Origin: a virus
Taxonomy: Duplodnaviria; Heunggongvirae; Uroviricota; Caudoviricetes
Virus record (IMG/VR): IMGVR_UViG_3300045988_024527
Location: 1 to 64,000 of that record
Length of the DNA stretch: 64,000 nucleotides
Strand: one strand, 5' to 3'
Both the position numbers and the translations under genes were made by a program. Positions 25,011 through 64,000 of this stretch are shown piece after piece. The notes beneath the pieces are model-generated. The model saw only the letters and a list, made by a program, of their open reading frames with translations. It was not told the origin of the DNA and searched no databases. Each line of letters starts with the position of its first letter. Position 1 is the stretch's first letter.

Positions 25011-27533
25011 ATGGCAGATTACAAGTTGAGTGAATTAAACTCAATCGATACAATCCGTTCAGATGACCTTCTTCATGTCAGGGTTAAAAAGAGACCTGAA
25101 ATGCTGGGTGATGAAGACCGTCGAATGACCTATCAAGATTTCTTAGCATCTTTTAAGCTTGAAAGATTTGTTCAGATTGCTGGTAGTACTATGACTGGTG
25201 ACTTAGGGATTGTTAAGTTACTTTATGGTGGTAAGGCAGTCTTTGACCCTACAGGCTCTTCTGAGATTACTATGGGGGATGTTTTAAAGACTTTTAAAAT
25301 TAACGCAAACGGACTTAGATTAACTATTGCAGATGCTTCAAGGTCGGCAACTGTTTATCATACCCTGAATAAACCAAGTCCTAATGAGCTTGGGATGAGA
25401 ACTAATGAAGAGAATGATGCAAGATATGCAAGGCTTGCTGTTACAAACACATTCTCTGGGACTCAGAACATTCAAGGTGATGTTAACTTACTTCGCCTTA
25501 GAAACCAAAATGCAAATAATGCACAATATATTGAAGGTGTAGACCTAGATGGTTCAGCTAGATGGTTGGTTGGTATTAGTAAAAATGGCTCTGATGCAGT
25601 TCAGTTGTACAATAACAAATATGACTCAGCTTTGACTATTGCAAGTAATATCTCTGTTAATAAGTCTTTAGCAATCACTGGTCAAGTTCAGCCTTCTGAC
25701 TTCTCTAACTTAGATGCTAGATACTTTACTCAGACAGCATCTAATCAGAGATTTGCACAGTTAGCTGCTAATAATGCTTTTAGCGGTGAAAATACATTCG
25801 GTAAACCTATTTCCGTAAAAGCTAATGAAGCTGCTATCATGTTACAGAATAAAGATGTAGGCGAGGAGTTATTCATCCTAGCAAAAGATAGCGAGTACAA
25901 TAATTTATGGTTTATTGGTAAAGGTGATACAAGCTCTGATATCACATTTTACGATTACAAGGGTAATACCTCTATTACCTTAAACTCGTCTGGCGTAGCA
26001 TTAAATAAGAATGTAAGAATCGCTGGTCAAGTACAACCTTCTGACTGGACTAACATTGACTCTAGATACATTCCGGCAGGGACTTTGAGTAATCTTGCTA
26101 AGATTGACACCAAAAATACCTTCACACAAGGTCAGGTTATTATGGTTGATGGTGAAGGTCTTAAATTACAAGGGGTGACTGATAGTGGTGGACTATTCTT
26201 ACAAGGTTATGACTCATTAAATAACAAAAAATGGTTTATGGGACATAACGGATTTGGAAACTTCACTATCCGTGAAATGGCATTAGGAACCGAACTCTCC
26301 CTAAGAGCAAATAATATTCAGTTTAACAAAAGCATCACAATTACTGGTCAAGTTCAACCTTCTGATTGGACTAACATTGATGGGAGATACTATAACAAAT
26401 CATCTGCTGATAATAGATACCTTAGAGTAAGAAGTACTGGATTCAATACTGGTGGTGCTGGTAAATGGGCTAAGATTGCTACTGTCAGTATGCCACAGGG
26501 TACATCAACAGCAGTGATTGAACTGTTTGGAGGGTCTGGATTTAACTTTGGTGTAATTAACCAAGCCTGTAAAACAGAAATTGTTCTTAGGACAGGAAAT
26601 GGTAACCCAAAAGGTTTAAATGTTGTTGCATGGAAAAACTCACCGAATGGTGTTGTAGACCAAATTGGGTATGTTAACACCTCTGGTGATAACTATGACA
26701 TTTATTGCGTAGTTGGTAGCTATCAAAACGCTACGACAGCTAGGGTTCAGTCATCATCTAATGCAGCAGTAGAACTGTTTGAGACTCCAGAGACCTCTGA
26801 CAACGCTCCATCTGGCTATGTTGATGGGACAATTGCTCACTATTATACGAGTATTTTGAAGCCAACCCCTTCAGATATTGGTGCATACACTAAAGCTGAA
26901 ACTGACCAGAAGATTGCACAGGCAATTAGTGACTCTACAGACCTTAATAAAATCTATCCAGTAGGTATTGTAACGTGGTTTAACAGTAATGTTGACCCTA
27001 ATACTGCACTCCCTGGTCTAACTTGGACGTACCTGAACAATGGTGTTGGCAGGACTATCAGAATCGCAGCAGCAAACGGTTCAGATGTTGCTACAACTGG
27101 CGGTTCAGATTCTGTAACGCTATCTGTTGGTAACTTACCTTCACATACCCACAGTTTCTCAGCTACAACGTCAAGCTTTGACTATGGTACGAAGACATCT
27201 AACAGCACTGGTGCTCATACCCACGCAGTGAGTGGCTCTACTAACCACACTGGTGCTCACCAGCATAGTGTAGGTGGTCGTTACGGTGGTGACTCTATCG
27301 GTGGTAGACAGCGTGTTCAGGTAGAAGGGACAAACCAGATTTCAAGTGTTGCTGGTGACCACTCCCACACACTATCAGGTACTGCTGCATCTGCTGGTGC
27401 TCATGCTCACACAGTAGGTATTGGTGCTCATACCCACACAGTATCTGGTAACACTGGTGGTACAGGTTCTGGTTCAGCATTTAGTGTTACTAACCAGTTC
27501 TACAAGTTAATGGCTTGGGTAAGAACTGCTTAA
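25011..27533 (+). CDS. long tail fibre protein (internal tandem repeats, C-terminal His-x-His domain)
   Basis: 840 aa; three repeats of I(T/A)GQVQPSD(F/W)(S/T)N(L/I)D.RY starting near 25675, 26021, 26341; C-terminus GNLPSHTHS...AHTHAVSGSTNHTGAHQHSVGGRYGGDSIGG... Confidence 0.7.
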   Translation: MADYKLSELNSIDTIRSDDLLHVRVKKRPEMLGDEDRRMTYQDFLASFKLERFVQIAGSTMTGDLGIVKLLYGGKAVFDPTGSSEITMGDVLKTFKINANGLRLTIADASRSATVYHTLNKPSPNELGMRTNEENDARYARLAVTNTFSGTQNIQGDVNLLRLRNQNANNAQYIEGVDLDGSARWLVGISKNGSDAVQLYNNKYDSALTIASNISVNKSLAITGQVQPSDFSNLDARYFTQTASNQRFAQLAANNAFSGENTFGKPISVKANEAAIMLQNKDVGEELFILAKDSEYNNLWFIGKGDTSSDITFYDYKGNTSITLNSSGVALNKNVRIAGQVQPSDWTNIDSRYIPAGTLSNLAKIDTKNTFTQGQVIMVDGEGLKLQGVTDSGGLFLQGYDSLNNKKWFMGHNGFGNFTIREMALGTELSLRANNIQFNKSITITGQVQPSDWTNIDGRYYNKSSADNRYLRVRSTGFNTGGAGKWAKIATVSMPQGTSTAVIELFGGSGFNFGVINQACKTEIVLRTGNGNPKGLNVVAWKNSPNGVVDQIGYVNTSGDNYDIYCVVGSYQNATTARVQSSSNAAVELFETPETSDNAPSGYVDGTIAHYYTSILKPTPSDIGAYTKAETDQKIAQAISDSTDLNKIYPVGIVTWFNSNVDPNTALPGLTWTYLNNGVGRTIRIAAANGSDVATTGGSDSVTLSVGNLPSHTHSFSATTSSFDYGTKTSNSTGAHTHAVSGSTNHTGAHQHSVGGRYGGDSIGGRQRVQVEGTNQISSVAGDHSHTLSGTAASAGAHAHTVGIGAHTHTVSGNTGGTGSGSAFSVTNQFYKLMAWVRTA

Positions 27534-27540
27534 TCCCTTG

Positions 27541-27595
27541 TTGACTGATTGTTAAGATGGTGTTAATATTCTTTATGGGTATTCTCACCATCTTG
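27541..27595 (+). promoter_or_regulatory. sigma70-like promoter with embedded inverted repeat
   Basis: TTGACT 27541-27546, 17 bp spacer, TAATAT 27564-27569; 9 bp inverted repeat aagatggtg (27555-27563) / caccatctt (27587-27595) brackets the -10 and start region. Confidence 0.45.
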
Positions 27596-27612
27596 GCTGA
27601 TGAGGTGATTAA

Positions 27613-27810
27613 ATGCCTACAATCCTAGCAATTCTTCTAAAAAATCTAGGTAGCTTCTTCTGGAAACTCGTTTTATCCCTTCTAAGTGAATACATGATTG
27701 AGAAAGTGTTCTTTAGGCTTGCAAGATATCTTGCGAGTAAGACAGACACACCTATTGATGATGAGTTCGTAGATAACTTAGAAAAAGCTTTTAAGGGGGA
27801 GAATAAATGA
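27613..27810 (+). CDS. small membrane protein (possible holin-like)
   Basis: 65 aa, hydrophobic N-terminus ILAILLKNLGSFFWKLVLSLL, charged C-terminus; downstream of tail fibres. Confidence 0.3.
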   Translation: MPTILAILLKNLGSFFWKLVLSLLSEYMIEKVFFRLARYLASKTDTPIDDEFVDNLEKAFKGENK

Positions 27811-28178
27811 AGTGGCTAGAGGAAGCTTTTAAAAATAATATTGGTGCAATTGTAGTTGGTATTTTTAGTGTTATTGGTATGTATACCACCATGCAAGTCT
27901 CGGATGGTAAGCAAGAAGTGTCTATCACAACAAAGTTACAGCAGTTAGATAATTATTCCAAAAGTAATTATTCAGCTATTCGTGATTTACAGTCTGATAT
28001 GAGGCTGCTTCAGCTAGGGATGGAGAACCAGAAAGTTCAGTTAGAGAATGTTAAGGGTGAGAACGCAAAACTTACCAAAACTCTTGATAAATTCTCTGAC
28101 AGCGTGAACAATTTGGCTCAATCAGTATCAGCCTTGCAAGCTATTACTGAAAAGAACACAAAGAATACTGAAAAGTAA
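27807..28178 (+). CDS. membrane-anchored coiled-coil protein
   Basis: 123 aa; TM segment IGAIVVGIFSVIGMYTT followed by coiled coil; ATGA-coupled to upstream ORF. Confidence 0.3.
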   Translation: MKWLEEAFKNNIGAIVVGIFSVIGMYTTMQVSDGKQEVSITTKLQQLDNYSKSNYSAIRDLQSDMRLLQLGMENQKVQLENVKGENAKLTKTLDKFSDSVNNLAQSVSALQAITEKNTKNTEK

Positions 28179-28184
28179 GATTTA

Positions 28185-28206
28185 AGGCTCCTTTTTACGG
28201 GAGCCT
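28185..28206. terminator. bidirectional terminator between convergent gene blocks
   Basis: Stem aggctcc/ggagcct with T-run after on + strand and A-rich loop for - strand. Confidence 0.6.
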
Positions 28207-28213
28207 TTTTGTT

Positions 28214-29113
28214 TTATTTACCTACTGACAGAGGTGCTTCAATCTTTCCTGCATGTTGGTAGTTATTAATTCCACCAATAAAGTCACTTGCAGTGAGATG
28301 TTTTAAGTCACTTAAAGTGTTAAGTGGGATACCAATCTCAAAAGTAGGTGCATGGAACTCTTCATTGTTCATCAGTTCATAAACCTGCTTCATGTGGTTC
28401 TGATAAATCTGAGTATCTCCAAAGACACCTATCAAGTATCGTGGAGTGTATCCAGTCATCTTACAAAGAACTTCCAGAATAAAACCATAAGATGCAATGT
28501 TAAACGGAAGTCCTAAAAAGGTGTCTACAGAACGCTGATACCATTGCAAATCTACTTCACCTTCGTTGGTGATATAAATCTGAAACAGAACATGACAAGG
28601 TGCTAAAGCCATCGAGTTTGCTGCAATATCTGCTGCATTCCAAGCATTAACAAGCATGTAACGGTCTGTAATATCACCCTTCATCTTCGTTACTAAGGTC
28701 TCTAGCTGGTCTACAACACAACCATTATGACCTTCAAAGTTTCTCCACTGAACCCCGTAGATTCTCCCACCTGCATCCTCTAACCAGTCTTGCTCAGAAG
28801 AATAGTTAGAGCTTAACCAGCGTTTAAAGTCATCTGACCAGATAGTCCAGCGTTCTCCATCATTTTCACCCCAAGTACGGTAACGGAGTTCGCCAAGTTT
28901 ATTCTCACCATTCAGGAACCATAAAGCTTCCCCAATAACTTGCCGTGTAAACACCTGTTTAGATGTTAAGAGCGGGAAACCAGTTCGCATATCAAAACGA
29001 AACTTAGGTGGAGCAAATGTAGAGATAACATCTCCAGTTCGTGTAGTACGCAGTTCACCGACTGATAAAACATAGTTCAGGATATTTTTATAACTTGAAT
29101 CTGCTTGTGACAT
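28214..29113 (-). CDS. thyA: thymidylate synthase
   Basis: LAPCHVLFQIYITNEGEVDLQWYQRSVDTFLGLPFNIASYGFIL matches ThyA active-site region. Confidence 0.85.
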   Translation of the reverse strand: MSQADSSYKNILNYVLSVGELRTTRTGDVISTFAPPKFRFDMRTGFPLLTSKQVFTRQVIGEALWFLNGENKLGELRYRTWGENDGERWTIWSDDFKRWLSSNYSSEQDWLEDAGGRIYGVQWRNFEGHNGCVVDQLETLVTKMKGDITDRYMLVNAWNAADIAANSMALAPCHVLFQIYITNEGEVDLQWYQRSVDTFLGLPFNIASYGFILEVLCKMTGYTPRYLIGVFGDTQIYQNHMKQVYELMNNEEFHAPTFEIGIPLNTLSDLKHLTASDFIGGINNYQHAGKIEAPLSVGK

Positions 29114-30807: not shown

Positions 30808-31137
30808 TTAATCTGCCAACCTTAAATTAAAATTAACACCAAATTTTTCACATACTTCCAACATATACTCAAGGGAAACATTCCCAGTGAGGTGGATTAT
30901 GTTGGATACACGAGCCTGAGAGATACCACAAATTTTAGCAACTTGCTCTTGAGAAAGACCTCTGGATTTAATCTCTCTCTTAAAACGATGTGCAACGAAG
31001 TCTCTCATTTCGTCTACATCCATTGGACAAATATAACTCTCCATTTCAGCCTCTCTGTCAGCCTCCCAATCATCTTGTGGGGCATAAGGGTCAAAAACCT
31101 CATTCATCTTTCTTCTTCCGTTTGCGTGAAGTGTCAA
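30808..31137 (-). CDS. XRE-family helix-turn-helix protein
   Basis: C-terminal GLSQEQVAKICGISQARVSNIIHLTGNVSLEYMLEVCEKFG is a Cro/C1-type HTH; acidic N-terminal extension. Confidence 0.6.
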   Translation of the reverse strand: MTLHANGRRKMNEVFDPYAPQDDWEADREAEMESYICPMDVDEMRDFVAHRFKREIKSRGLSQEQVAKICGISQARVSNIIHLTGNVSLEYMLEVCEKFGVNFNLRLAD

Positions 31138-31697: not shown

Positions 31698-31744
31698 AAT
31701 GACCTCAAAGTTATATTAAATCTTGTATTACGTTGAGTATAAAA

Positions 31745-31787
31745 ATAAGCTATAACACCTGACTTGTCAACAGATTTTATAGCTTAT
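31745..31787 (-). promoter_or_regulatory. candidate promoter inside 11 bp perfect inverted repeat
   Basis: ataagctataa (31745-31755) and ttatagcttat (31777-31787) flank a 21 bp spacer carrying TTGACA on the - strand; weak TATTTT 17 bp downstream; upstream of gene 31314-31697. Confidence 0.4.
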
Positions 31788-31794
31788 TTGGCAG

Positions 31795-32057
31795 ATTTTT
31801 TATAAGGCTACTGCCATCCTTCCATACCAAGCCCTGCCGAACCGAACCATGCTTTGCCATACCGGACAATACCTGACTAGACATCACTTAAAAATCCTCT
31901 TAGAAGACTCTTAAGTGATGTAATCGAATTTTTATGTAGTTTCGATTAACTACCCATACCAAGCCTAACCTGACCGCACCAAACTTTACAACACCACACC
32001 ATACCTGACCATAACAAACCTCATTAAAAGACCCTGTTTAAAGACCTTTTAAAAAGG
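31795..32057 (-). repeat. modular intergenic repeat block A (CA-rich segments plus hairpins H1, H3, H2)
   Basis: Shares H1 (31882-31920), H3 (31922-31953) and H2 (32021-32057) with block B at 33221-33460, modules in different order. Confidence 0.6.
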
Positions 32058-32073: not shown

Positions 32074-32084
32074 ACCTAGTCAAC

Positions 32085-33220: not shown

Positions 33221-33460
33221 CACCCATACCAGACCTAACTACACCTCACCCCACCTGACCCATACCTCGCATTACCATACCAAACCAGACCCCACCTCAT
33301 TAAAAGACCCTCTTAAAGACCTTTTAAAAAGGTAAGTCTCATTTTAATGTAGCTGAGACTAACTACCCACACCAAACCATAGCATACATCGCATTACCGG
33401 ACAGAACCATACTTTACCAGACATCACTTAAAAACCCTCTTAGAAGACTCTTAAGTGATG
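33221..33460 (-). repeat. modular intergenic repeat block B (CA-rich segments plus hairpins H2, H3, H1)
   Basis: H2 33298-33332, H3 33335-33366, H1 33422-33460; a further hairpin ggtgagta/tactcacc at 33463-33504. Confidence 0.6.
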
Positions 33461-33525
33461 CTGGTGAGTACCCGTTGGTTTATGCTGCTCAGTATACTCA
33501 CCAAATTTTCTATGTCAACAACTTT

Positions 33526-39200: not shown

Positions 39201-39412
39201 ATTATAAAAAGCAAGTTGACAATGCACTTGACAAGGTGTTAATCTTTGCGAAGTGGGTTTTTACTTAAAAGGTTACTTAACAGTTTAACTATACAGATAC
39301 TTTAAAACTCTTAAAAGATTATTTAATAGCTTTTAAAAAGCTTTAAAGTATAACGTATAGAATACGTTAAGATAAAAGATTAAAACTTAATAGTTACTTA
39401 AAAGAGGCTTAC
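39201..39412. promoter_or_regulatory. AT-rich divergent control region between - and + gene blocks
   Basis: Duplicated TTGACA (39216-39221, 39228-39233), TATAAT on - strand (39201-39206), palindromes agctttt.aaaagct near 39328-39342 and taacgta/tacgtta (39351-39370); hexamer spacings are not canonical. Confidence 0.3.
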
Positions 39413-52825: not shown

Positions 52826-54022
52826 ATGAACAAAGTACAGATTATTAAAAAGAATGGCTCACTTGAAGAACCTGATATCAAAAAAGTTTTAGCAGCAGTA
52901 ACTAAGTCAGCTAACAGAGTTGGATATAAAGAACTCCCACCAGATGTTACCCAAGCTCTTGAGTCAGCATTTATGAGGATTCTGGTAAAGTCCACTAAGC
53001 AGAATAATTTACTCATCTCAGTCAATGATATCCACAGCATTGTTGAGGGTGCTTTGGCAGAAGTCAATCACGAGATTTATGAGTCTTACTCAACATATAG
53101 AAATTACCGGAAAGAGGTTGCTCAAAATTGGGATGAGCTTTACCAAAAGACTAGAGACACGCTCTTCTTAGGTGACCGTGAAAACGCTAACTTTGACAGC
53201 AGTTTAATTTCTACAAAAGGTTCAATTATTCGTGGTTATCTGACTAAAGAAATCTTTAAACAGTACCATTTAACACCAGAGGAACTTGAAGCCATTGAAA
53301 AAGGGTTTATCTATATCCATGATTTAAGAGACCTAATTTTTGGTGGTATCAACTGTTGCCTGTTTGACATTGGTAAAGTACTGAAAGGTGGCTTTGAAAT
53401 GTCTGGCATCGAATACTGTGAACCGAAGTCTGTGCTGTCAGCCTTACAGGTTATTGGTGATGTAGTTCTTTCAGCAACTGCACAGCAATTTGGTGGCTTT
53501 ACTTTAGCAGAGATTGATAAGGTACTTGTACCGTATGCTAAGAAGTCTCTACGCTATCATGCTGAGAAAGCAGCATCTTACGGTATTCCTAAAGAACATT
53601 ACCACAATTATGTCATGGAGCAGCTACAGATTGAACTGACTCAAGGTTTCCAGTCACTTGAAATGAAACTAAACACTGTACCTTGTAGTCGTGGGGATTT
53701 TGCATTTACAACTTTGACATTTGGGTTACTTGACTCAGATATGTCTAATGAAGATAATCGACTGCAATACATGATTGCAAGTACTCTCCTAGATGTTCGT
53801 ATGAATGGACAAGGTAAGAGCAAGAAGCCTGTTGTATTCCCTAAACTGGTTTATATTTATGACCAGAAGAGACACGATGAGAATATCTGTCAAGGACACC
53901 TGTACAGTAAAGCCATTGAGTGTTGCTCTAAAGCGATGTATCCAGATTTCTTAAGTGTATCTGGTCATGGTGCTGTAGCAGAGGCTTTTGAGCGTTCTGG
54001 TAAGGTTATTTCACCGATGGGT
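52826..54022 (+). CDS. nrdD: anaerobic ribonucleotide reductase, exon 1
   Basis: 399 codons ending ...ERSGKVISPMG; reading frame hits stop 3 nt into the proposed intron. Confidence 0.8.
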
Positions 54023-54764
54023 TAACAGGCTCTATAGCTCATCTAAAACGTGCCTAAACAGGGAAACTCTACAGATGTAGACAATCCTGTGCTAAATGAT
54101 GTACGATGTAAGAAACTATACAACATAGGAGTCTTACATGCCAAACTATCACGTCACTGAAGATGGAAAAGTCTTTAGGGAAAATGGTGTAGAACTTACG
54201 CAGTGGAAATCCAACACTGGGTATATGAAAGTGAGGTTTTACGGTAAGAAGAATCGTGACATGTATGTCCACAGGTTAGTTGCTGAGAAATATGTACCTA
54301 ACCCGAATAATCTTCCAATTGTAAAACATAAGGACGATAACAAACTAAATAACCACGCATCTAACTTAGAATGGGGTACTCATTCTGAGAATGCTAAAGA
54401 GGGTTATGAGAACGGATGTTACAAGTTCCACAAGCGTTCATATGCCGTGAAAGCCACACACAAAGTGACAAAGGAAGTTATTGTTGCTAAGTCAATACGA
54501 GAGTTATCCAATATACTTGGACACAATCGCAAGACCATCTCTTCAATATTGAAGGGTGTAAAAGAGCATAATAACTTCGAATATGAGTTTGAATACATCT
54601 AAATGCCGAACGACTAACCGTGATGAATGTAGCGGTGTAGGGTCAAGCGACTCGAAATGGTACGCTACTTAGAAATAAGTAGAAGATATAGTCTGGACTT
54701 ACTGGCGACAGTAAGCAGCTTGAATAAAGCGGGGTAAGCTTAGCGAACTTACCTGAACAACAAG
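54023..54764 (+). other. group I self-splicing intron interrupting nrdD
   Basis: Exon 1 ends in U (54022) and intron ends in G (54764); exon tail gatgggu can pair intron gcucauc (54037-54043) with U-G at the splice site; joining gives ...SPMG|CRAFLSPYLNDNGEEFYVGRANIG...; intron carries an HNH ORF. Confidence 0.65.
54138..54602 (+). CDS. intron-encoded HNH homing endonuclease
   Basis: VHRLVAEKYVPNPNNLPIVKHKDDNKLNNHASNLEWGTHSENAK is an HNH_3-type motif; located inside the nrdD intron. Confidence 0.8.
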   Translation: MPNYHVTEDGKVFRENGVELTQWKSNTGYMKVRFYGKKNRDMYVHRLVAEKYVPNPNNLPIVKHKDDNKLNNHASNLEWGTHSENAKEGYENGCYKFHKRSYAVKATHKVTKEVIVAKSIRELSNILGHNRKTISSILKGVKEHNNFEYEFEYI

Positions 54765-55712
54765 TGTAGAGCGTTTTTATCACCATATCTTAACGATAAT
54801 GGGGAAGAGTTCTATGTAGGTCGTGCTAACATTGGTGCTGTGTCTTTGAACTTACCAATGATTTACCAGTATTCTAAAGAGAATGGTTTAGATTTCTGGA
54901 AAGAGCTTGATAAGTACCTAGAGATGATTCGTAGTTTCCACAAGAAACGCTATGAAATGATTGCCAATATGCCAGCAAGTTCTAACCCTCTTGCATTTAC
55001 ACAAGGTGGTCTGTACAAAGGAACTAAGAAGCCTACTGACAAGGTTGGTTGGGATATTGTGAAGTCCTTCACAGCTTCTTTTGGGGTTACTGCGCTTGAT
55101 GAGCTATCTGTTCTTGCTGAAGGTAAACGACTTCATGAAGTTGGAAGCTATAGTTTTGCATATGATGTTCTGGCATACATCAATATGAAAACTGAAGAGT
55201 TTAAGAACGAAGATGGCTTCTTGTATGCGGTATATGGCACTCCAGCAGAATCACTTTGTGGAACTCAGTTAAAACAGTTCAGAGATATGTTTGGCGTTAT
55301 TAAAGGTGTCTCTGACAAGGAATACTTTACAAACAGTTTCCATATGAATGTTGCAGCAGACATCTCACCATTTGAGAAGCAGGACTTAGAAGAGCCATTC
55401 TTCCATATCTGTAGAGGTGGTAGAATCCAGTATGTAAGGGTAGCTAACCCAGAAAACTTACCAGCACTTAAAAGTTGTATTACAAGAGGGATGTTGAAGG
55501 GTTTTTATCAGGGACTTAACTTTGACTTAGCAATCTGTGAACATTGTGGTAACAGACCAAAAGCTGATGTTGAAGAATGTGAGGTTTGTCATTCACATGA
55601 TATCTCTGTGATTAACAGGGTGTGCGGATACTTATCATTCACAAAAATTAAAGGCCAGTCTCGAATGAATGACGCTAAGATGGCAGAAATTAAGGATAGG
55701 ATTTCTATGTAA
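54765..55712 (+). CDS. nrdD: anaerobic ribonucleotide reductase, exon 2
   Basis: In-frame continuation with C-terminal cysteine cluster CEHCGNRPKADVEECEVCHSHD and glycyl-radical motif RVCGYLSF. Confidence 0.8.
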   Translation, partial: CRAFLSPYLNDNGEEFYVGRANIGAVSLNLPMIYQYSKENGLDFWKELDKYLEMIRSFHKKRYEMIANMPASSNPLAFTQGGLYKGTKKPTDKVGWDIVKSFTASFGVTALDELSVLAEGKRLHEVGSYSFAYDVLAYINMKTEEFKNEDGFLYAVYGTPAESLCGTQLKQFRDMFGVIKGVSDKEYFTNSFHMNVAADISPFEKQDLEEPFFHICRGGRIQYVRVANPENLPALKSCITRGMLKGFYQGLNFDLAICEHCGNRPKADVEECEVCHSHDISVINRVCGYLSFTKIKGQSRMNDAKMAEIKDRISM

Positions 55713-55721
55713 AACTTGACA

Positions 55722-55760
55722 AGGTGATGTGGGTCTTGATAGGCTTACATCACCTTTTTA
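55722..55760 (+). terminator. rho-independent terminator
   Basis: 9 bp stem aggtgatgt/acatcacct followed by ttttt. Confidence 0.6.
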
Positions 55761-55865
55761 TTGGATGTTATATATGGCAGAGAGTATTATTGGGTTGTTC
55801 ATAGGTTCTGTCTTACTAGGGTTCTTTTTAGGACTCTCTTATTGTGAGTTGAGAGGCAAGTTAAA

Positions 55866-62444: not shown

Positions 62445-64000
62445 TATGCGCATGGTAAATGACCACGCAGAAGTGATTAAGAGTTCAACTTCTTTGGAGA
62501 CATCTCAAGCACAGATTACAATGACACCTGAAATGTTCAGCCTTTTGAGTTCTGGTGTATACACGTTTAAAGAAAGGGCAGTGATTCGTGAACTGTCATG
62601 TAATGCAGTAGATGCTCAGAAAGAAGCTGGAAAAGAGAACATCCCGTTCCATGTGCATTTACCTACTCGATTTGAGCCTTACTTTGAAGTCCGTGACTTT
62701 GGAACTGGTTTAACCCACGACAAAGTAATGAGTTTGTATCTGAACTACGGGGCTTCTACGAAGAATGACTCTAATGATTACATTGGTGCAATGGGTATCG
62801 GCTCAAAATCCCCATTTGCAATTGCTCAGTCCTTCACAGTGTCTAGCTATGTTGATGGTGTTGTTAATAAGTACTCAGTTTACCTTGAGAATGGTATCCC
62901 TCAAGTAACTAAGCTTACTACTAACCAAACAAATGAACCTAATGGTTTAGCGGTACGTGTGGCAGTTGCTGACCACCGTATTTCAAAGTTCTTTGAAGAG
63001 GCTGGTCACGTATACTCATACTTTGCTGTAAAACCAGAAAGTAATATTGTATATGATGACGTATTAGCAGACATGAATGTCATTGCTCGTGAAGAAGGTG
63101 TTTATGACGCTATGATTCATAAGCAAAGCTGGCGTTCTAGTGGTAACAGGACAGAGTTTAATGTGGTGATGGGTAATATTGCCTATCCAGTTAATATGGA
63201 AGCATTACTTGGTGATGATTTCTTCAAAGTCTTGCCAGAGTTTTTCCGTAGGAGCGTAGACCTTGTAAACATCTACATGCCTATTGGTTCAGTGGCTATT
63301 GCAGCTTCTCGTGAAGCATTGCAGATGAATGACACGACAAAAAATGTTATCATTGAGGCTACTAAAAAGATAACTGAAGCCATTACAAAGGATGTTATCA
63401 AGAAAGTTAACAGCCAACCTACACTCATGGATGCTGCACAGGCTTATGCTGAGTTACGTTTGAACTCACGAGAGATGTTTAATGTTGTGTGTCCAAAGCT
63501 AGAGTGGGGAGGCGTTAAGCTTGATTCTCTGGAAGAAGAATTGTTAAACATTCGTCGTGGAATTATCTACGCAGAAGACGGCTCAGTCATCTATGAACGT
63601 GACGGCAAAGGTAATATTAAGGTTGATAGGAACGGAAACAACATCCCTAAAGTAGATTATCTTTATAACCCAGTTGCTTATGTCAAGTTCAACTCTTTAG
63701 AGAGTAAGATTCGTGCAACAGCACTTTCCTACACTCAAGAGGCAAGTATGTTCAATATCTTTGGTGCAATGCGTAAAAGCCAAATTGAACAGTTTTTGTT
63801 CGTGATTAATGACCGTCGCAATAAAAACGGTACTGAGAAGACTGTAGGACGCAATCAAATCTTGCGTGGTGCATGTCGAGACTACGCTAACGAGTCAGGT
63901 CTGTTCCACAGATACAATGGTATTGTGTTTGTATTCTCGACTGAAAAAGAGTTAGATGATTTAATCAATCTACACAAACTTGATAAAAGCTTGTTAAAGA
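62445..64000 (+). CDS. rIIA: rIIA-like protein with GHKL-type ATPase motifs (3' end outside window)
   Basis: Open frame from ATG 62445 (aagagga SD) to the window end, absent from ORF track; EVRDFGTGLTHDKV and GAMGIGSKS resemble HATPase_c boxes. Confidence 0.45.

What the first reader, a model, noticed from the sequence alone, without database searches (positions are those of the whole stretch)
27541..27595. Promoter with a palindrome spanning the -10 region upstream of small membrane-protein genes
TTGACT-17 bp-TAATAT (27541-27569) is bracketed by the 9 bp inverted repeat aagatggtg/caccatctt (27555-27595), an operator-like layout that would let a dimeric regulator block the -10 and start site. 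It precedes two small membrane-protein genes after the tail fibres, where lysis timing is usually controlled.
Basis: seen in the sequence. Interest (0 to 1): 0.45.

Follow-up and report, generated by a model that had tools for sequence, protein, structure and literature searches.

The report
Promoter fused to an RNA hairpin
In this Felix O1-type phage, the gap between the tail-fibre gene and two small membrane-protein genes holds a conserved host-type promoter overlapped by a strong RNA hairpin; this resembles the promoter/stem-loop cassettes known from T4-like phages more than a repressor binding site, and it is a modest rather than surprising find.

Summary
The window is a Felix O1-like phage (Felixounavirus). 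TTGACT (27541-46), a 17-bp spacer and TAATAT (27564-69) are present, with a TG extended -10 at 27561-62.

The -35 and both arms are close to invariant across four lineages in three genera, while the 5' spacer, the loop and the flanks vary. The right-arm block 27578-98 is the longest invariant run in a 1.3-kb alignment.

The palindrome is the core of a larger plus-strand RNA hairpin (27551-97, 19 pairs including 5 G.U). It folds at -23.7 kcal/mol, against -12.8 for the opposite strand and -8.4 as DNA. One base pair changes in a compensatory way.

Several other promoter-like sites in the same genome are also fused to hairpins. More distant relatives carry plain terminators at this position.

Best reading: a PeSL-like promoter/stem-loop cassette. 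Host RNA polymerase would start in the loop, so only read-through tail-fibre transcripts carry the hairpin, which would act as an attenuator, stabiliser or processing signal. This function is inferred, not shown.

The operator idea is not excluded but is less well supported. The link to lysis timing rests only on unverified "holin" annotations.

The parts
25011..27533 (+). Tail-fibre gene (Felix O1 ORF77 homologue). Its stop codon at 27531-27533 is the left boundary of the element.
   Evidence: ORF list; annotation of homologues.
27541..27546 (+). -35 hexamer TTGACT of the predicted promoter, here called P78.
   Evidence: Conserved in all relatives except two IMG/VR contigs that have TTAACT, while the bases on both sides vary.
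27561..27569 (+). Extended -10, TGtTAATAT (TG at 27561-62, hexamer at 27564-69). It lies in the lower-stem end, internal loop and upper stem of the hairpin.
   Evidence: The same GGTGTTAAT context occurs at the promoter-like site at 39216. BPROM predicted the site in UAB_Phi87.
27554..27562 (+). Left arm of the perfect 9-bp inverted repeat (AAGATGGTG), inside the promoter spacer.
   Evidence: Positions 27554-27566 form a 13-nt invariant run.
27586..27594 (+). Right arm of the perfect 9-bp inverted repeat (CACCATCTT), at about +10 to +18 of the predicted transcript.
27551..27597 (+). Full plus-strand RNA hairpin. The 12-bp lower stem pairs 27551-62 with 27586-97. A 2x2 internal loop (UU/CU) follows. 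The 7-bp upper stem pairs 27565-71 with 27577-83. The loop is 5 nt (27572-76). The predicted start site at about 27575-27577 lies in the loop or at the first 3'-strand base.
   Evidence: Fold of -23.7 kcal/mol, z = -8.2. The opposite strand folds at -12.8 and the DNA form at -8.4. 98% of cells are paired, with one CG<->UA compensatory pair and one UG->CG change. The start site is inferred from the usual -10 to +1 distance.
27578..27598 (+). Invariant block GGTATTCTCACCATCTTGGCT. It is the 3' strand of the hairpin and also the first ~20 nt of the predicted P78 transcript. It is also complementary to the Shine-Dalgarno sequence (UCACC/GGUGA) and to the start-codon region (GGUAUU/AAUGCC).
   Evidence: Longest invariant run in the 1.3-kb alignment of 32 distinct sequences. 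Alternative pairing predicted in all genera. Occurs once per genome in IMG/VR.
27602..27608 (+). Shine-Dalgarno sequence GAGGTGA of the 65-aa gene.
   Evidence: Sequence; ribosome-binding sites annotated in Michonne.
27613..27810 (+). 65-aa protein (Felix O1 ORF78 homologue; phrog_402, function unknown) with a borderline N-terminal hydrophobic segment.
   Evidence: Homologues lie next to tail-fibre genes in unrelated phages.
27807..28178 (+). 123-aa protein (Felix O1 ORF79 homologue; phrog_4038) with an N-terminal transmembrane segment and a coiled-coil. It is often labelled 'holin' without experimental support.
28184..28207 (.). Bidirectional intrinsic terminator that closes the two-gene cassette (Felix O1 t79/t80).
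   Evidence: Table 2 of Whichard 2010.

Best explanation
The element is a composite promoter/stem-loop cassette of the kind called PeSL (promoter-early stem-loop) in T4-like phages.

One component is a host sigma-70 promoter of the extended -10 type (TTGACT, 14 nt, TGt, TAATAT). It would drive the two small genes independently of the upstream late tail-fibre operon.

The other component is a 47-nt plus-strand RNA hairpin. Its 5' strand lies in the promoter spacer and -10, and its 3' strand is the first ~20 nt of the promoter's own transcript.

Because initiation would fall in the hairpin loop (about 27575-27577), promoter-initiated RNA lacks the 5' strand and cannot form the hairpin. Only RNA reading through from the tail-fibre gene carries the complete hairpin. 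In that RNA the hairpin would act as an attenuator, a 3'-end stabiliser or a processing signal, separating the tail-fibre message from the small-gene cassette. An RNase III-type substrate is possible given its length of about 21 base-pair levels and its internal loop.

What is shown: the sequence motifs, their conservation pattern, the strand asymmetry of the fold, one compensatory pair, and the recurrence of the architecture in this genome.

What is inferred: promoter activity, the start site, and what the hairpin does to the RNA. The absence of a U-tract makes classical intrinsic termination unlikely.
For: 1. The motif and its position are as described.

2. The conservation pattern fits this reading across Felixounavirus, Mooglevirus, Suspvirus and a fourth lineage (L033). 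The -35 and both hairpin strands are invariant or nearly so. The 5' spacer, the loop (5-6 nt, variable in length), the stop-codon flank and the segment after the hairpin all vary.

3. The invariant blocks match the RNA hairpin strands (27551-71 and 27577-97), not just the 9-bp DNA palindrome.

4. All five non-Watson-Crick pairs in the stems are G.U on the plus strand. The plus-strand RNA folds at -23.7 kcal/mol, the minus strand at -12.8 and the DNA form at -8.4.

5. Pair 27570/27577 is C-G in Felixounavirus and U-A in the other lineages (7 sequences each), with C.A intermediates. Position 27553 changes U.G to C-G.

6. At the homologous position, Kolesnikvirus phiEa21-4, a Hafnia phage and Moazamivirus-type phages carry ordinary terminator hairpins. 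phiEa21-4 also has TTGACA-N14-TGc-TACCTT directly after the stop codon.

7. The architecture recurs in the same genome:
   - 55716: TTGACA plus a terminator hairpin, conserved in Felix O1 and Michonne, including the loop sequence TGATAGGCT.
   - 35922(-), 32083(-) and 33518(-): further promoter-like sites fused to hairpins.
   - 31770(-): an inverted repeat around the -35.

8. Intergenic TTGAC[AT] sites are followed by a hairpin of -15 kcal/mol or stronger in 35% of cases, against 6.8% for random intergenic positions (Mann-Whitney p = 9e-5).

9. PeSLs are described as running from the upstream stop codon through a sigma-70 promoter and a stem-loop to the Shine-Dalgarno sequence and ATG. The stem-loop lies between the -35 and -10 or overlaps the -10, its stems contain G-T pairs, and both promoter and terminator/attenuator activities were measured (PMC2839356; PMC4122927).

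10. Felix O1 RT-PCR put ORF79 in the 5-min class and ORF78 in the 25-min class, against 60 min for ORF76 and ORF77 (PMC3185647).
Against: - There are no transcript data, so neither promoter activity nor the start site is shown.
- The RT-PCR timing is unreliable. The same table places the major capsid gene in the 5-min class.
- The hairpin has no U-tract (it is followed by GGCUGAUGAGG), so it is not a canonical terminator. The Michonne annotators, who marked terminators throughout that genome, marked none here.
- Covariation is thin. 13 of 19 pairs never vary, and only one pair is compensatory, probably from one or two events.
- Sequence-level invariance of both arms is also what a protein-binding site would show.
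- Unlike T4-type PeSLs, this sequence is not a repeated family. It occurs once per genome.
- The region upstream of the -35 is not AT-rich.
- The divergence boundary in the tail-fibre gene lies 200-300 nt upstream of the ATG, not at the element.
Confidence: 0.5

Rival explanations
1. DNA operator. A phage-encoded or host regulator binds the inverted repeat AAGATGGTG / CACCATCTT as a dimer or a dimer of dimers. This occludes the -10 and the start site and shuts P78 off or on at a given time.
For: - The 9-bp repeat is perfect and brackets the -10 and start site.
- Both arms are invariant at the sequence level rather than covarying.
- A second promoter, at 33518(-), has an inverted repeat (TGGTGAGTA/TACTCACCA) in the same layout around its -10 and start site, and it shares a TGGTGAG core with the right arm of this element.
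- The phage encodes an XRE/HTH_3 protein.
Against: - The half-site centres are 32 bp apart. The TGGTG cores are 28 bp apart here and 37 bp apart at 33518, so the spacing is not conserved.
- I found no other copy of the arms at any promoter in the window, and the right-arm block occurs once per genome in IMG/VR.
- Conservation extends to non-palindromic bases (GGTATT, GGCT) that pair only as G.U in plus-strand RNA.
- A compensatory change occurs in the upper stem, which a DNA-binding model does not require.
- The XRE gene's own operon promoter carries a different 13-bp palindrome (31743-55 / 31777-89), a more natural target for that protein.
- The comparison of XRE between relatives is uninformative.
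Confidence: 0.15
2. Transcript-origin-dependent translational switch. The invariant right-arm block acts as an anti-Shine-Dalgarno and anti-AUG sequence. In P78-initiated RNA it would pair with the ribosome-binding site (UCACC/GGUGA) and the start codon region (GGUAUU/AAUGCC) of the 65-aa gene. In read-through RNA the left arm would capture it instead. Translation of the cassette would then depend on which promoter made the RNA. This could coexist with the best explanation.
For: - The same alternative fold is predicted in seven sequences from the four lineages. AUG accessibility is about 0.01 and Shine-Dalgarno accessibility 0.21-0.27 in the P78 RNA.
- Variation between GGUGA and AAUGCC is confined to the 3-nt internal loop.
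- The apical mini-stem is rebuilt differently in different lineages: CAUC/GAUG in Felixounavirus and UCUUG/CAAGA in Mooglevirus.
- It would explain why the right-arm block is the most conserved stretch.
Against: - The fold of the P78 5' UTR is not significantly better than shuffles (z = -1.2 to -1.5).
- Accessibility of this translation start is only the 11th lowest of 81 ORFs in the window.
- In read-through RNA the Shine-Dalgarno sequence is also predicted to be mostly paired (0.01-0.42), here with the flank next to the stop codon, so the predicted switch is not clean.
- The Shine-Dalgarno sequence and the ATG are conserved for translation in any case.
Confidence: 0.15
3. Chance palindrome next to a promoter-like match, conserved only because the relatives are closely related. 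Under this view there is no function beyond, at most, a promoter.
For: - About ten 9-bp inverted repeats and about five promoter-like sites of this quality are expected by chance in the window.
- Most relatives are 95-99% identical here.
- Against the well-conserved immediate neighbourhood, the invariant run is only P = 0.037.
Against: - The arms stay invariant in lineages that are only 80-85% identical in the flanking genes, while the loop, spacer and flanks change.
- Fold z = -8.2, and the fourth most stable local fold in 64 kb on either strand.
- The G.U pattern is specific to the plus strand.
- One pair is compensatory.
- The same architecture recurs in the genome.
Confidence: 0.05

Closest known systems
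PeSL (promoter-early stem-loop) composite promoter-terminator cassettes of T4-like phages RB49/phi1, PST/T4 and nt-1/KVP40 (Arbiol et al. 2010, PMC2839356; Comeau et al. 2014, PMC4122927)
   Same: [quoted passage not shown]
- A near-consensus sigma-70 promoter with a 17-bp spacer.
- A stem-loop placed within the promoter. Published subclasses include stem-loops between the -35 and -10 and stem-loops overlapping the -10.
- G-T (G.U) pairs in the stems on the sense strand.
- A proposed role of stopping or attenuating upstream transcription while restarting it for a small gene of unknown function.
   Different: - The host phage is an Ounavirinae member, not a T4-like phage.
- The sequence is single-copy, not a repeated family.
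- There is no AT-rich tract upstream of the -35.
- The stem is long (19 pairs), not of the poly-G/poly-C type, and lacks a U-tract.
- It spans the -10 and the start site, so the promoter's own RNA contains only the 3' strand.
- There is no sign of recombination breakpoints at the element.
- Promoter and terminator activities are untested here.
RNase III processing hairpins between genes of phage T7 (for example R1.1) and the lambda sib retroregulator (recalled from my own knowledge, not tested)
   Same: - An intercistronic hairpin of about two helical turns interrupted by an internal loop and with no U-tract.
- As with sib, the complete structure exists only in transcripts that begin upstream and read through, not in transcripts from the nearer promoter.
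   Different: - There is no sequence relationship.
- The internal loop here is a small symmetric 2x2.
- There are no cleavage data.
- RNase III determinants cannot be scored with the available tools.
Classical phage operators overlapping promoters (lambda OR/OL, P22, 434; XRE/Cro-type repressors)
   Same: An inverted repeat overlaps the -10 and start site of a sigma-70 promoter, in a phage that encodes an HTH_3 protein.
   Different: - The half-site centres are 32 bp apart, rather than about one helical turn.
- There are no multiple operator copies.
- Conservation extends to non-symmetric bases.
- The strand-asymmetric G.U pattern points to RNA.
The BPROM-predicted promoter of Salmonella phage UAB_Phi87 at position 62,577 (Bardina et al. 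2016, PMC4837284, Table S1)
   Same: It is the homologous site with identical hexamers (TTGACT / TGTTAATAT), so the promoter prediction itself is already in the literature.
   Different: It is only a computational listing. The inverted repeat or hairpin is not mentioned, and nothing was tested.

Membership tests
PeSL composite promoter/stem-loop cassette | Occupies the intergenic space from the stop codon of the upstream gene to the Shine-Dalgarno sequence and ATG of the downstream gene. | tested here: met
   Stop at 27531-33, -35 at 27541, hairpin at 27551-97, Shine-Dalgarno at 27602-08, ATG at 27613. Layout as in the Fig. 2 legend of PMC2839356.
PeSL composite promoter/stem-loop cassette | A sigma-70-like early promoter (-35 and -10 separated by about 17 bp). 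| tested here: met
   TTGACT-17-TAATAT with an extended -10 TG. The match is by sequence only; activity is not tested.
PeSL composite promoter/stem-loop cassette | A stable stem-loop at a defined position relative to the promoter (between the boxes, overlapping the -35 or -10, upstream, or just before the start site). | tested here: met
   The hairpin 27551-97 starts in the spacer, contains the -10 and ends at about +21. Fold -23.7 kcal/mol, z = -8.2.
PeSL composite promoter/stem-loop cassette | A repeated, sequence-conserved motif present many times per genome, concentrated in variable regions. | tested here: inconclusive
   This exact sequence is single-copy. However, the genome holds several other promoter-plus-hairpin composites, some sharing TTGACAAGGTG or GGTGTTAAT, and there is a statistical association between -35-like hexamers and hairpins.
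PeSL composite promoter/stem-loop cassette | An AT-rich tract upstream of the -35. | tested here: not met
   The upstream sequence is GCTTAATCCCTTG.
PeSL composite promoter/stem-loop cassette | The stem-loop terminates or attenuates transcription coming from upstream, and the promoter is active in vivo. | not testable with these tools
   No U-tract follows the stem. Reporter or transcript mapping is needed.
PeSL composite promoter/stem-loop cassette | Association with indels or gene shuffling between close relatives. | tested here: not met
   The identity profile shows the divergence boundary 200-300 nt upstream of the ATG, inside the tail-fibre gene, not at the element.
Repressor operator (dimeric HTH type) | Inverted half-sites spaced so that a dimer contacts adjacent major grooves (about 10-11 bp centre to centre, or a multiple with cooperative dimers). 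| tested here: inconclusive
   The centres are 32 bp apart (27558 and 27590). This is about three turns, so the sites are on the same face, but it is far wider than classical dimer operators (the comparison rests on my own knowledge).
Repressor operator (dimeric HTH type) | Specific binding by a cognate regulator, usually with further operator copies at co-regulated or autoregulated promoters. | tested here: not met
   I found no further copy of the arms at any promoter in the 64 kb, and the right-arm block occurs once per genome in IMG/VR contigs. The XRE operon promoter has an unrelated palindrome. Binding itself cannot be tested here.
Intrinsic (Rho-independent) terminator | A G+C-rich hairpin followed directly by a U-tract. 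| tested here: not met
   The hairpin is followed by GGCTGATGAGG and was not reported by the terminator scan.
Any curated RNA family (Rfam 15) | A match to a covariance model. | tested here: not met
   Only chance-level hits over 27545-27600 (E = 4.6-9.6, far below the gathering scores).

The most novel reading that the evidence does not exclude
The invariant 21-nt block (27578-27598) is the hub of a three-way RNA switch. It could pair with the promoter-spacer strand, which exists only in late read-through RNA. It could pair with the Shine-Dalgarno and AUG region of the first small gene, in RNA started at the embedded promoter. And the completed hairpin could serve as a processing site. The same DNA would then set both the transcription source and the translatability of a putative holin or membrane-protein cassette. 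More broadly, Felix O1-type phages, whose temporal control is unexplained, would use promoter-in-hairpin cassettes as their general means of insulating transcription units.
Probability: 0.15. Interest if true: 0.55.

Novelty: new member of a known kind. Interest (0 to 1): 0.3.

Why it matters
Felix O1 is a classic Salmonella typing and biocontrol phage. Its temporal transcription programme is still unexplained: it has no phage RNA polymerase and no known polymerase modifiers, and Whichard et al. 2010 state that it is not known how its terminators are bypassed or its timing set.

A conserved promoter embedded in a hairpin, together with several similar composites in the same genome, suggests a simple rule. 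Hairpins would end or mark the upstream message, and a host-type promoter inside the hairpin would restart transcription, with its own RNA escaping the structure.

If this is confirmed, it would extend the PeSL concept beyond T4-like phages. It would also identify an independently transcribed two-gene membrane-protein cassette next to the tail fibres, with possible roles in lysis, superinfection exclusion or something else. It would give phage engineers a compact insulator/promoter part. This is a useful annotation-level advance, not a surprise.

Tried and rejected
- **Rfam scan** of 27300-28300 at permissive E-values: nothing meaningful.
- **blastn of the intergenic region against 5,426 E. 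coli genomes:** no match, so it is not a host-derived element.
- **Search for a regulon:** I looked for the arms and the right-arm block elsewhere in the window with up to 3 mismatches, and for the right-arm block in IMG/VR. There were no promoter-associated copies, and the block occurs once per genome.
- **TGGTG...CACCA pairs genome-wide:** these are common in coding DNA, and the core spacing differs between the two promoter-associated cases (28 and 37 bp), so a shared operator is not supported.
- **Literature search for transcript maps of Felix O1-like phages:** none found. Only RT-PCR timing and BPROM lists exist.
- **gp79 as a T4-type holin:** no similarity to holin t of ECD7. There was no PDB, Pfam or NCBIfam assignment, and only a marginal PHROG hit to an Rz-like spanin.
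- **Translational sequestration as the main explanation:** the accessibility rank is unexceptional (11th of 81) and the fold z-score is not significant.
- **PeSL-type recombination at the element:** the identity profiles place the breakpoint inside the tail-fibre gene.
- **Cruciform or DNA-level structure:** only -8.4 kcal/mol as DNA.
- **XRE protein divergence as a test of the operator model:** uninformative, because the recognition helix is conserved along with the palindrome.
- **Search for more divergent carriers of the hairpin, for covariation:** the next relatives (Kolesnikvirus, a Hafnia phage, Moazamivirus-type phages, Krischvirus) have different intergenic sequences, so the covariation depth could not be improved.

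Full report
**Identity of the window**

The region around the finding matches about 280 phage records at 80-99% identity. Almost all are Felix O1-like myoviruses of Escherichia, Salmonella, Shigella and Citrobacter.

The finding lies in the 79-bp gap between two features. Upstream is the second tail-fibre gene (25011-27533, Felix O1 ORF77). Downstream is a two-gene cassette: 27613-27810 (65 aa, ORF78) and 27807-28178 (123 aa, ORF79). The cassette is closed by a bidirectional terminator at 28184-28207. Thymidylate synthase and dihydrofolate reductase follow on the opposite strand.

**Check of the observation**

The sequence reads TTGACT (27541-46), 17 bp, TAATAT (27564-69). A TG at 27561-62 makes it an extended -10 promoter.

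The perfect 9-bp inverted repeat is at 27554-62 and 27586-94. It extends to imperfect 15-nt arms.

Taken alone, neither motif is beyond chance:
- 9-bp inverted repeats with short loops gave 24 k-mer hits, against 11 +/- 3.9 in simulations.
- Promoter-like sites of this quality number 11, against 4.7 +/- 2.2 expected.

The case for a real element rests on its position, its conservation and its fold.

**Conservation**

I compared the gap in Felix O1, in Mooglevirus (Michonne, Sf13, HP1, KMM4, Henu11), in Suspvirus (EcSzw-2, mistaenkt), in 29 IMG/VR contigs and in a fourth lineage, L033.

Invariant or nearly so:
- the -35 hexamer;
- AAGATGGTGTTAATAT;
- GGTATTCTCACCATCTTGGCT.

Variable:
- the bases beside the stop codon;
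- the first 7 nt of the spacer;
- the loop, which changes in both length and sequence;
- the stretch between the hairpin and the Shine-Dalgarno sequence.

In a 1.3-kb alignment of 32 distinct sequences, the block 27578-98 is the longest invariant run and 27554-66 is the third longest. Shuffling gives P = 0.037 against the conserved neighbourhood and 1.5e-4 against the whole alignment.

A few natural variants touch the promoter: TTAACT in two contigs and TAACAT in one.

**DNA site or RNA structure**

As plus-strand RNA the palindrome is the core of a 47-nt hairpin (27551-97):
- a 12-bp lower stem;
- a 2x2 internal loop;
- a 7-bp upper stem;
- a 5-nt loop.

It folds at -23.7 kcal/mol with z = -8.2. 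This is the fourth most stable 55-nt window on either strand of the 64 kb.

The five extra pairs are all G.U. The opposite strand therefore folds at only -12.8, and the DNA form at only -8.4.

The edges of the invariant blocks coincide with the hairpin strands, not with the 9-bp palindrome.

Counting pairs on 17 distinct sequences gives 98% paired cells. 13 of 19 pairs never vary. One pair is compensatory: C-G in Felixounavirus, U-A in the other lineages, with C.A intermediates. One wobble pair strengthens to C-G. The covariation is therefore consistent with the structure but thin.

There is no Rfam family match and no E. coli genome match.

**Comparison with more distant relatives**

The 65-aa protein (phrog_402) has homologues next to tail-fibre genes in many phages. 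The sequence in front of the gene differs by lineage:
- **phiEa21-4 (Kolesnikvirus):** TTGACA-N14-TGc-TACCTT follows the stop codon, and then a true terminator.
- **A Hafnia phage and Moazamivirus-type phages:** a terminator only.
- **Krischvirus ECD7:** the homologue lies between tail-fibre gene 37 and holin gene t.

A stem-loop at the end of the structural gene is thus the common theme. In the Felix O1 group it lacks a U-tract and is fused to a promoter.

**Recurrence within the genome**

Other promoter-like sites in the window are also fused to hairpins:
- **55716:** TTGACA, then AAGGTGATGT...ACATCACCTT and a T-run. It is conserved in Felix O1 and Michonne, including the loop TGATAGGCT, which reads as an extended -10.
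- **35922(-):** TTGACAAGGTGCTC...GAGTACCTT.
- **32083(-):** TTGACT plus a terminator.
- **33518(-):** an inverted repeat around the -10 and start site.
- **31770(-):** a 13-bp inverted repeat around the -35.

Intergenic TTGAC[AT] hexamers are followed by a hairpin of -15 kcal/mol or stronger in 35% of cases, against 6.8% for random intergenic positions (p = 9e-5). The gene calls behind this test were crude.

The -10 context GGTGTTAAT of the finding recurs at the promoter-like site at 39216 in the divergent early region.

**Closest known system**

This architecture matches the PeSL cassettes of T4-like phages. Those are described as running from a stop codon through a sigma-70 promoter and a stem-loop to the Shine-Dalgarno sequence and ATG. 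The stem-loop lies between the boxes or overlaps the -10, and the stems contain G-T pairs. Promoter activity and terminator/attenuator activity were both measured (PMC2839356; PMC4122927).

The differences here are:
- the sequence is single-copy;
- there is no AT-rich upstream tract;
- there is no U-tract;
- there is no recombination breakpoint at the element;
- the phage belongs to a different subfamily.

The promoter itself was already listed by BPROM for UAB_Phi87. I found no description of the hairpin.

**Mechanism proposed**

Host RNA polymerase would start at about 27575-27577, in the loop. The start site is inferred from the usual -10 to +1 distance. P78 RNA would then carry only the 3' strand of the hairpin.

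Late read-through RNA from the tail-fibre gene would carry the whole hairpin. There the hairpin could attenuate transcription, protect the 3' end or be processed.

Felix O1 RT-PCR places ORF79 in the 5-min class and ORF78 in the 25-min class, earlier than ORF76 and ORF77 at 60 min. That table is noisy, however, because it also puts the capsid gene in the 5-min class.

**Side hypothesis: a translational switch**

The invariant block may also pair with the Shine-Dalgarno sequence and the AUG in P78 RNA. This fold is predicted in all lineages. It is not statistically exceptional.

**The operator model**

This model remains possible, because both arms are invariant at the sequence level. It has no positive support:
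- the half-site spacing of 32 bp is atypical;
- I found no other operator copies at promoters in the window;
- the asymmetric conserved bases are unexplained by it;
- the XRE comparison was uninformative.

**The downstream genes**

Each protein has one N-terminal hydrophobic segment. Neither has a curated family.

Database records disagree on which of the two is the 'holin'. The 123-aa protein is unrelated to the T4-type holin. Whichard et al. list gp79 only as one of five holin candidates.

The link to lysis timing is therefore unproven.

**Verdict**

This is a real, conserved regulatory element. It is best read as a promoter embedded in an RNA hairpin. It is a new member of a known kind, of modest interest, and needs transcript mapping to settle its function.

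Noticed in passing
window 33411-33465 (-) and 31871-31925 (-): Two paralogous long hairpins (CATCACTTAAGAGTCTTCTAAGAGGRTTTTTAAGTGATG) fold at -27.0 and -25.6 kcal/mol. They are the two most stable local folds in the whole window. Both sit in untranslated stretches of the minus-strand early region and are followed by GGT-rich repeats (ggtatgg, ggtcaggt and similar). The first lies just downstream of the promoter at 33518. Their function is unknown.
   Followed up: partly
window 31743-31755 / 31777-31789 (promoter on the minus strand, -35 at 31770-31765): A perfect 13-bp inverted repeat (AAATAAGCTATAA / TTATAGCTTATTT) brackets the -35 TTGACA of the promoter-like site upstream of the operon that contains the XRE-type gene (30808-31137). 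It is a better candidate for that regulator's own operator than the palindrome in the finding. Alternatively it is another promoter-in-hairpin composite, since a T-run follows it.
   Followed up: no
window 55716-55765 (+): TTGACA follows the upstream stop codon, then a 16-bp terminator hairpin (AAGGTGATGTGGGTCT / AGGCTTACATCACCTT plus TTTTTATT). The loop TGATAGGCT reads as an extended -10. The element is conserved in Felix O1 and Michonne, with changes that preserve pairing. It lies upstream of a small hydrophobic ORF. It is a second promoter/terminator composite.
   Followed up: partly
window 33518-33462 (-): The promoter-like site TTGACA-16-TATACT has an inverted repeat (TGGTGAGTA / TACTCACCA) in the same layout as the finding: one arm at the -10 and the other at about +20. 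It is present in Felix O1 but absent from Michonne, where the region is replaced.
   Followed up: partly
window 39228, 55716 (+) and 35922 (-); also 32083 (-): A recurring 11-mer, TTGACAAGGTG (TTGACTAGGTA at 32083), appears at promoter-like sites. Two of them are preceded by CTAAG. This suggests a phage-specific extended promoter motif or duplicated regulatory cassettes.
   Followed up: no
L013 (Krischvirus ECD7) 1489-1728; L011, L012, L010, L009: Homologues of the 65-aa protein (phrog_402) sit next to tail-fibre or virion genes in unrelated phage groups. In ECD7 the homologue lies between gp37 and holin t, in the place that gp38 holds in T4 (gp38's position is from my own knowledge). The family may be linked to tail fibres rather than to lysis.
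   Followed up: partly
window 27534-27543 with 27602-27611; L002 1095-1104 with the region of its Shine-Dalgarno sequence: The bases right after the tail-fibre stop codon (UAAUCCCUU in Felixounavirus, UAAUUACCUU in Mooglevirus) are complementary to the Shine-Dalgarno region of the next gene (GAGGUGAUUA and AAGGUGAUUA). In read-through RNA this extends the hairpin at its base. The pairing is much weaker in Suspvirus.
   Followed up: partly
window 52826-55712: The nrdD-like region appears as several separate ORFs (52826-54025, 54138-54602, 54840-55712), whereas Felix O1 has one 2.1-kb gene. This may reflect an intron or homing-endonuclease insertion, or frame disruptions.
   Followed up: no
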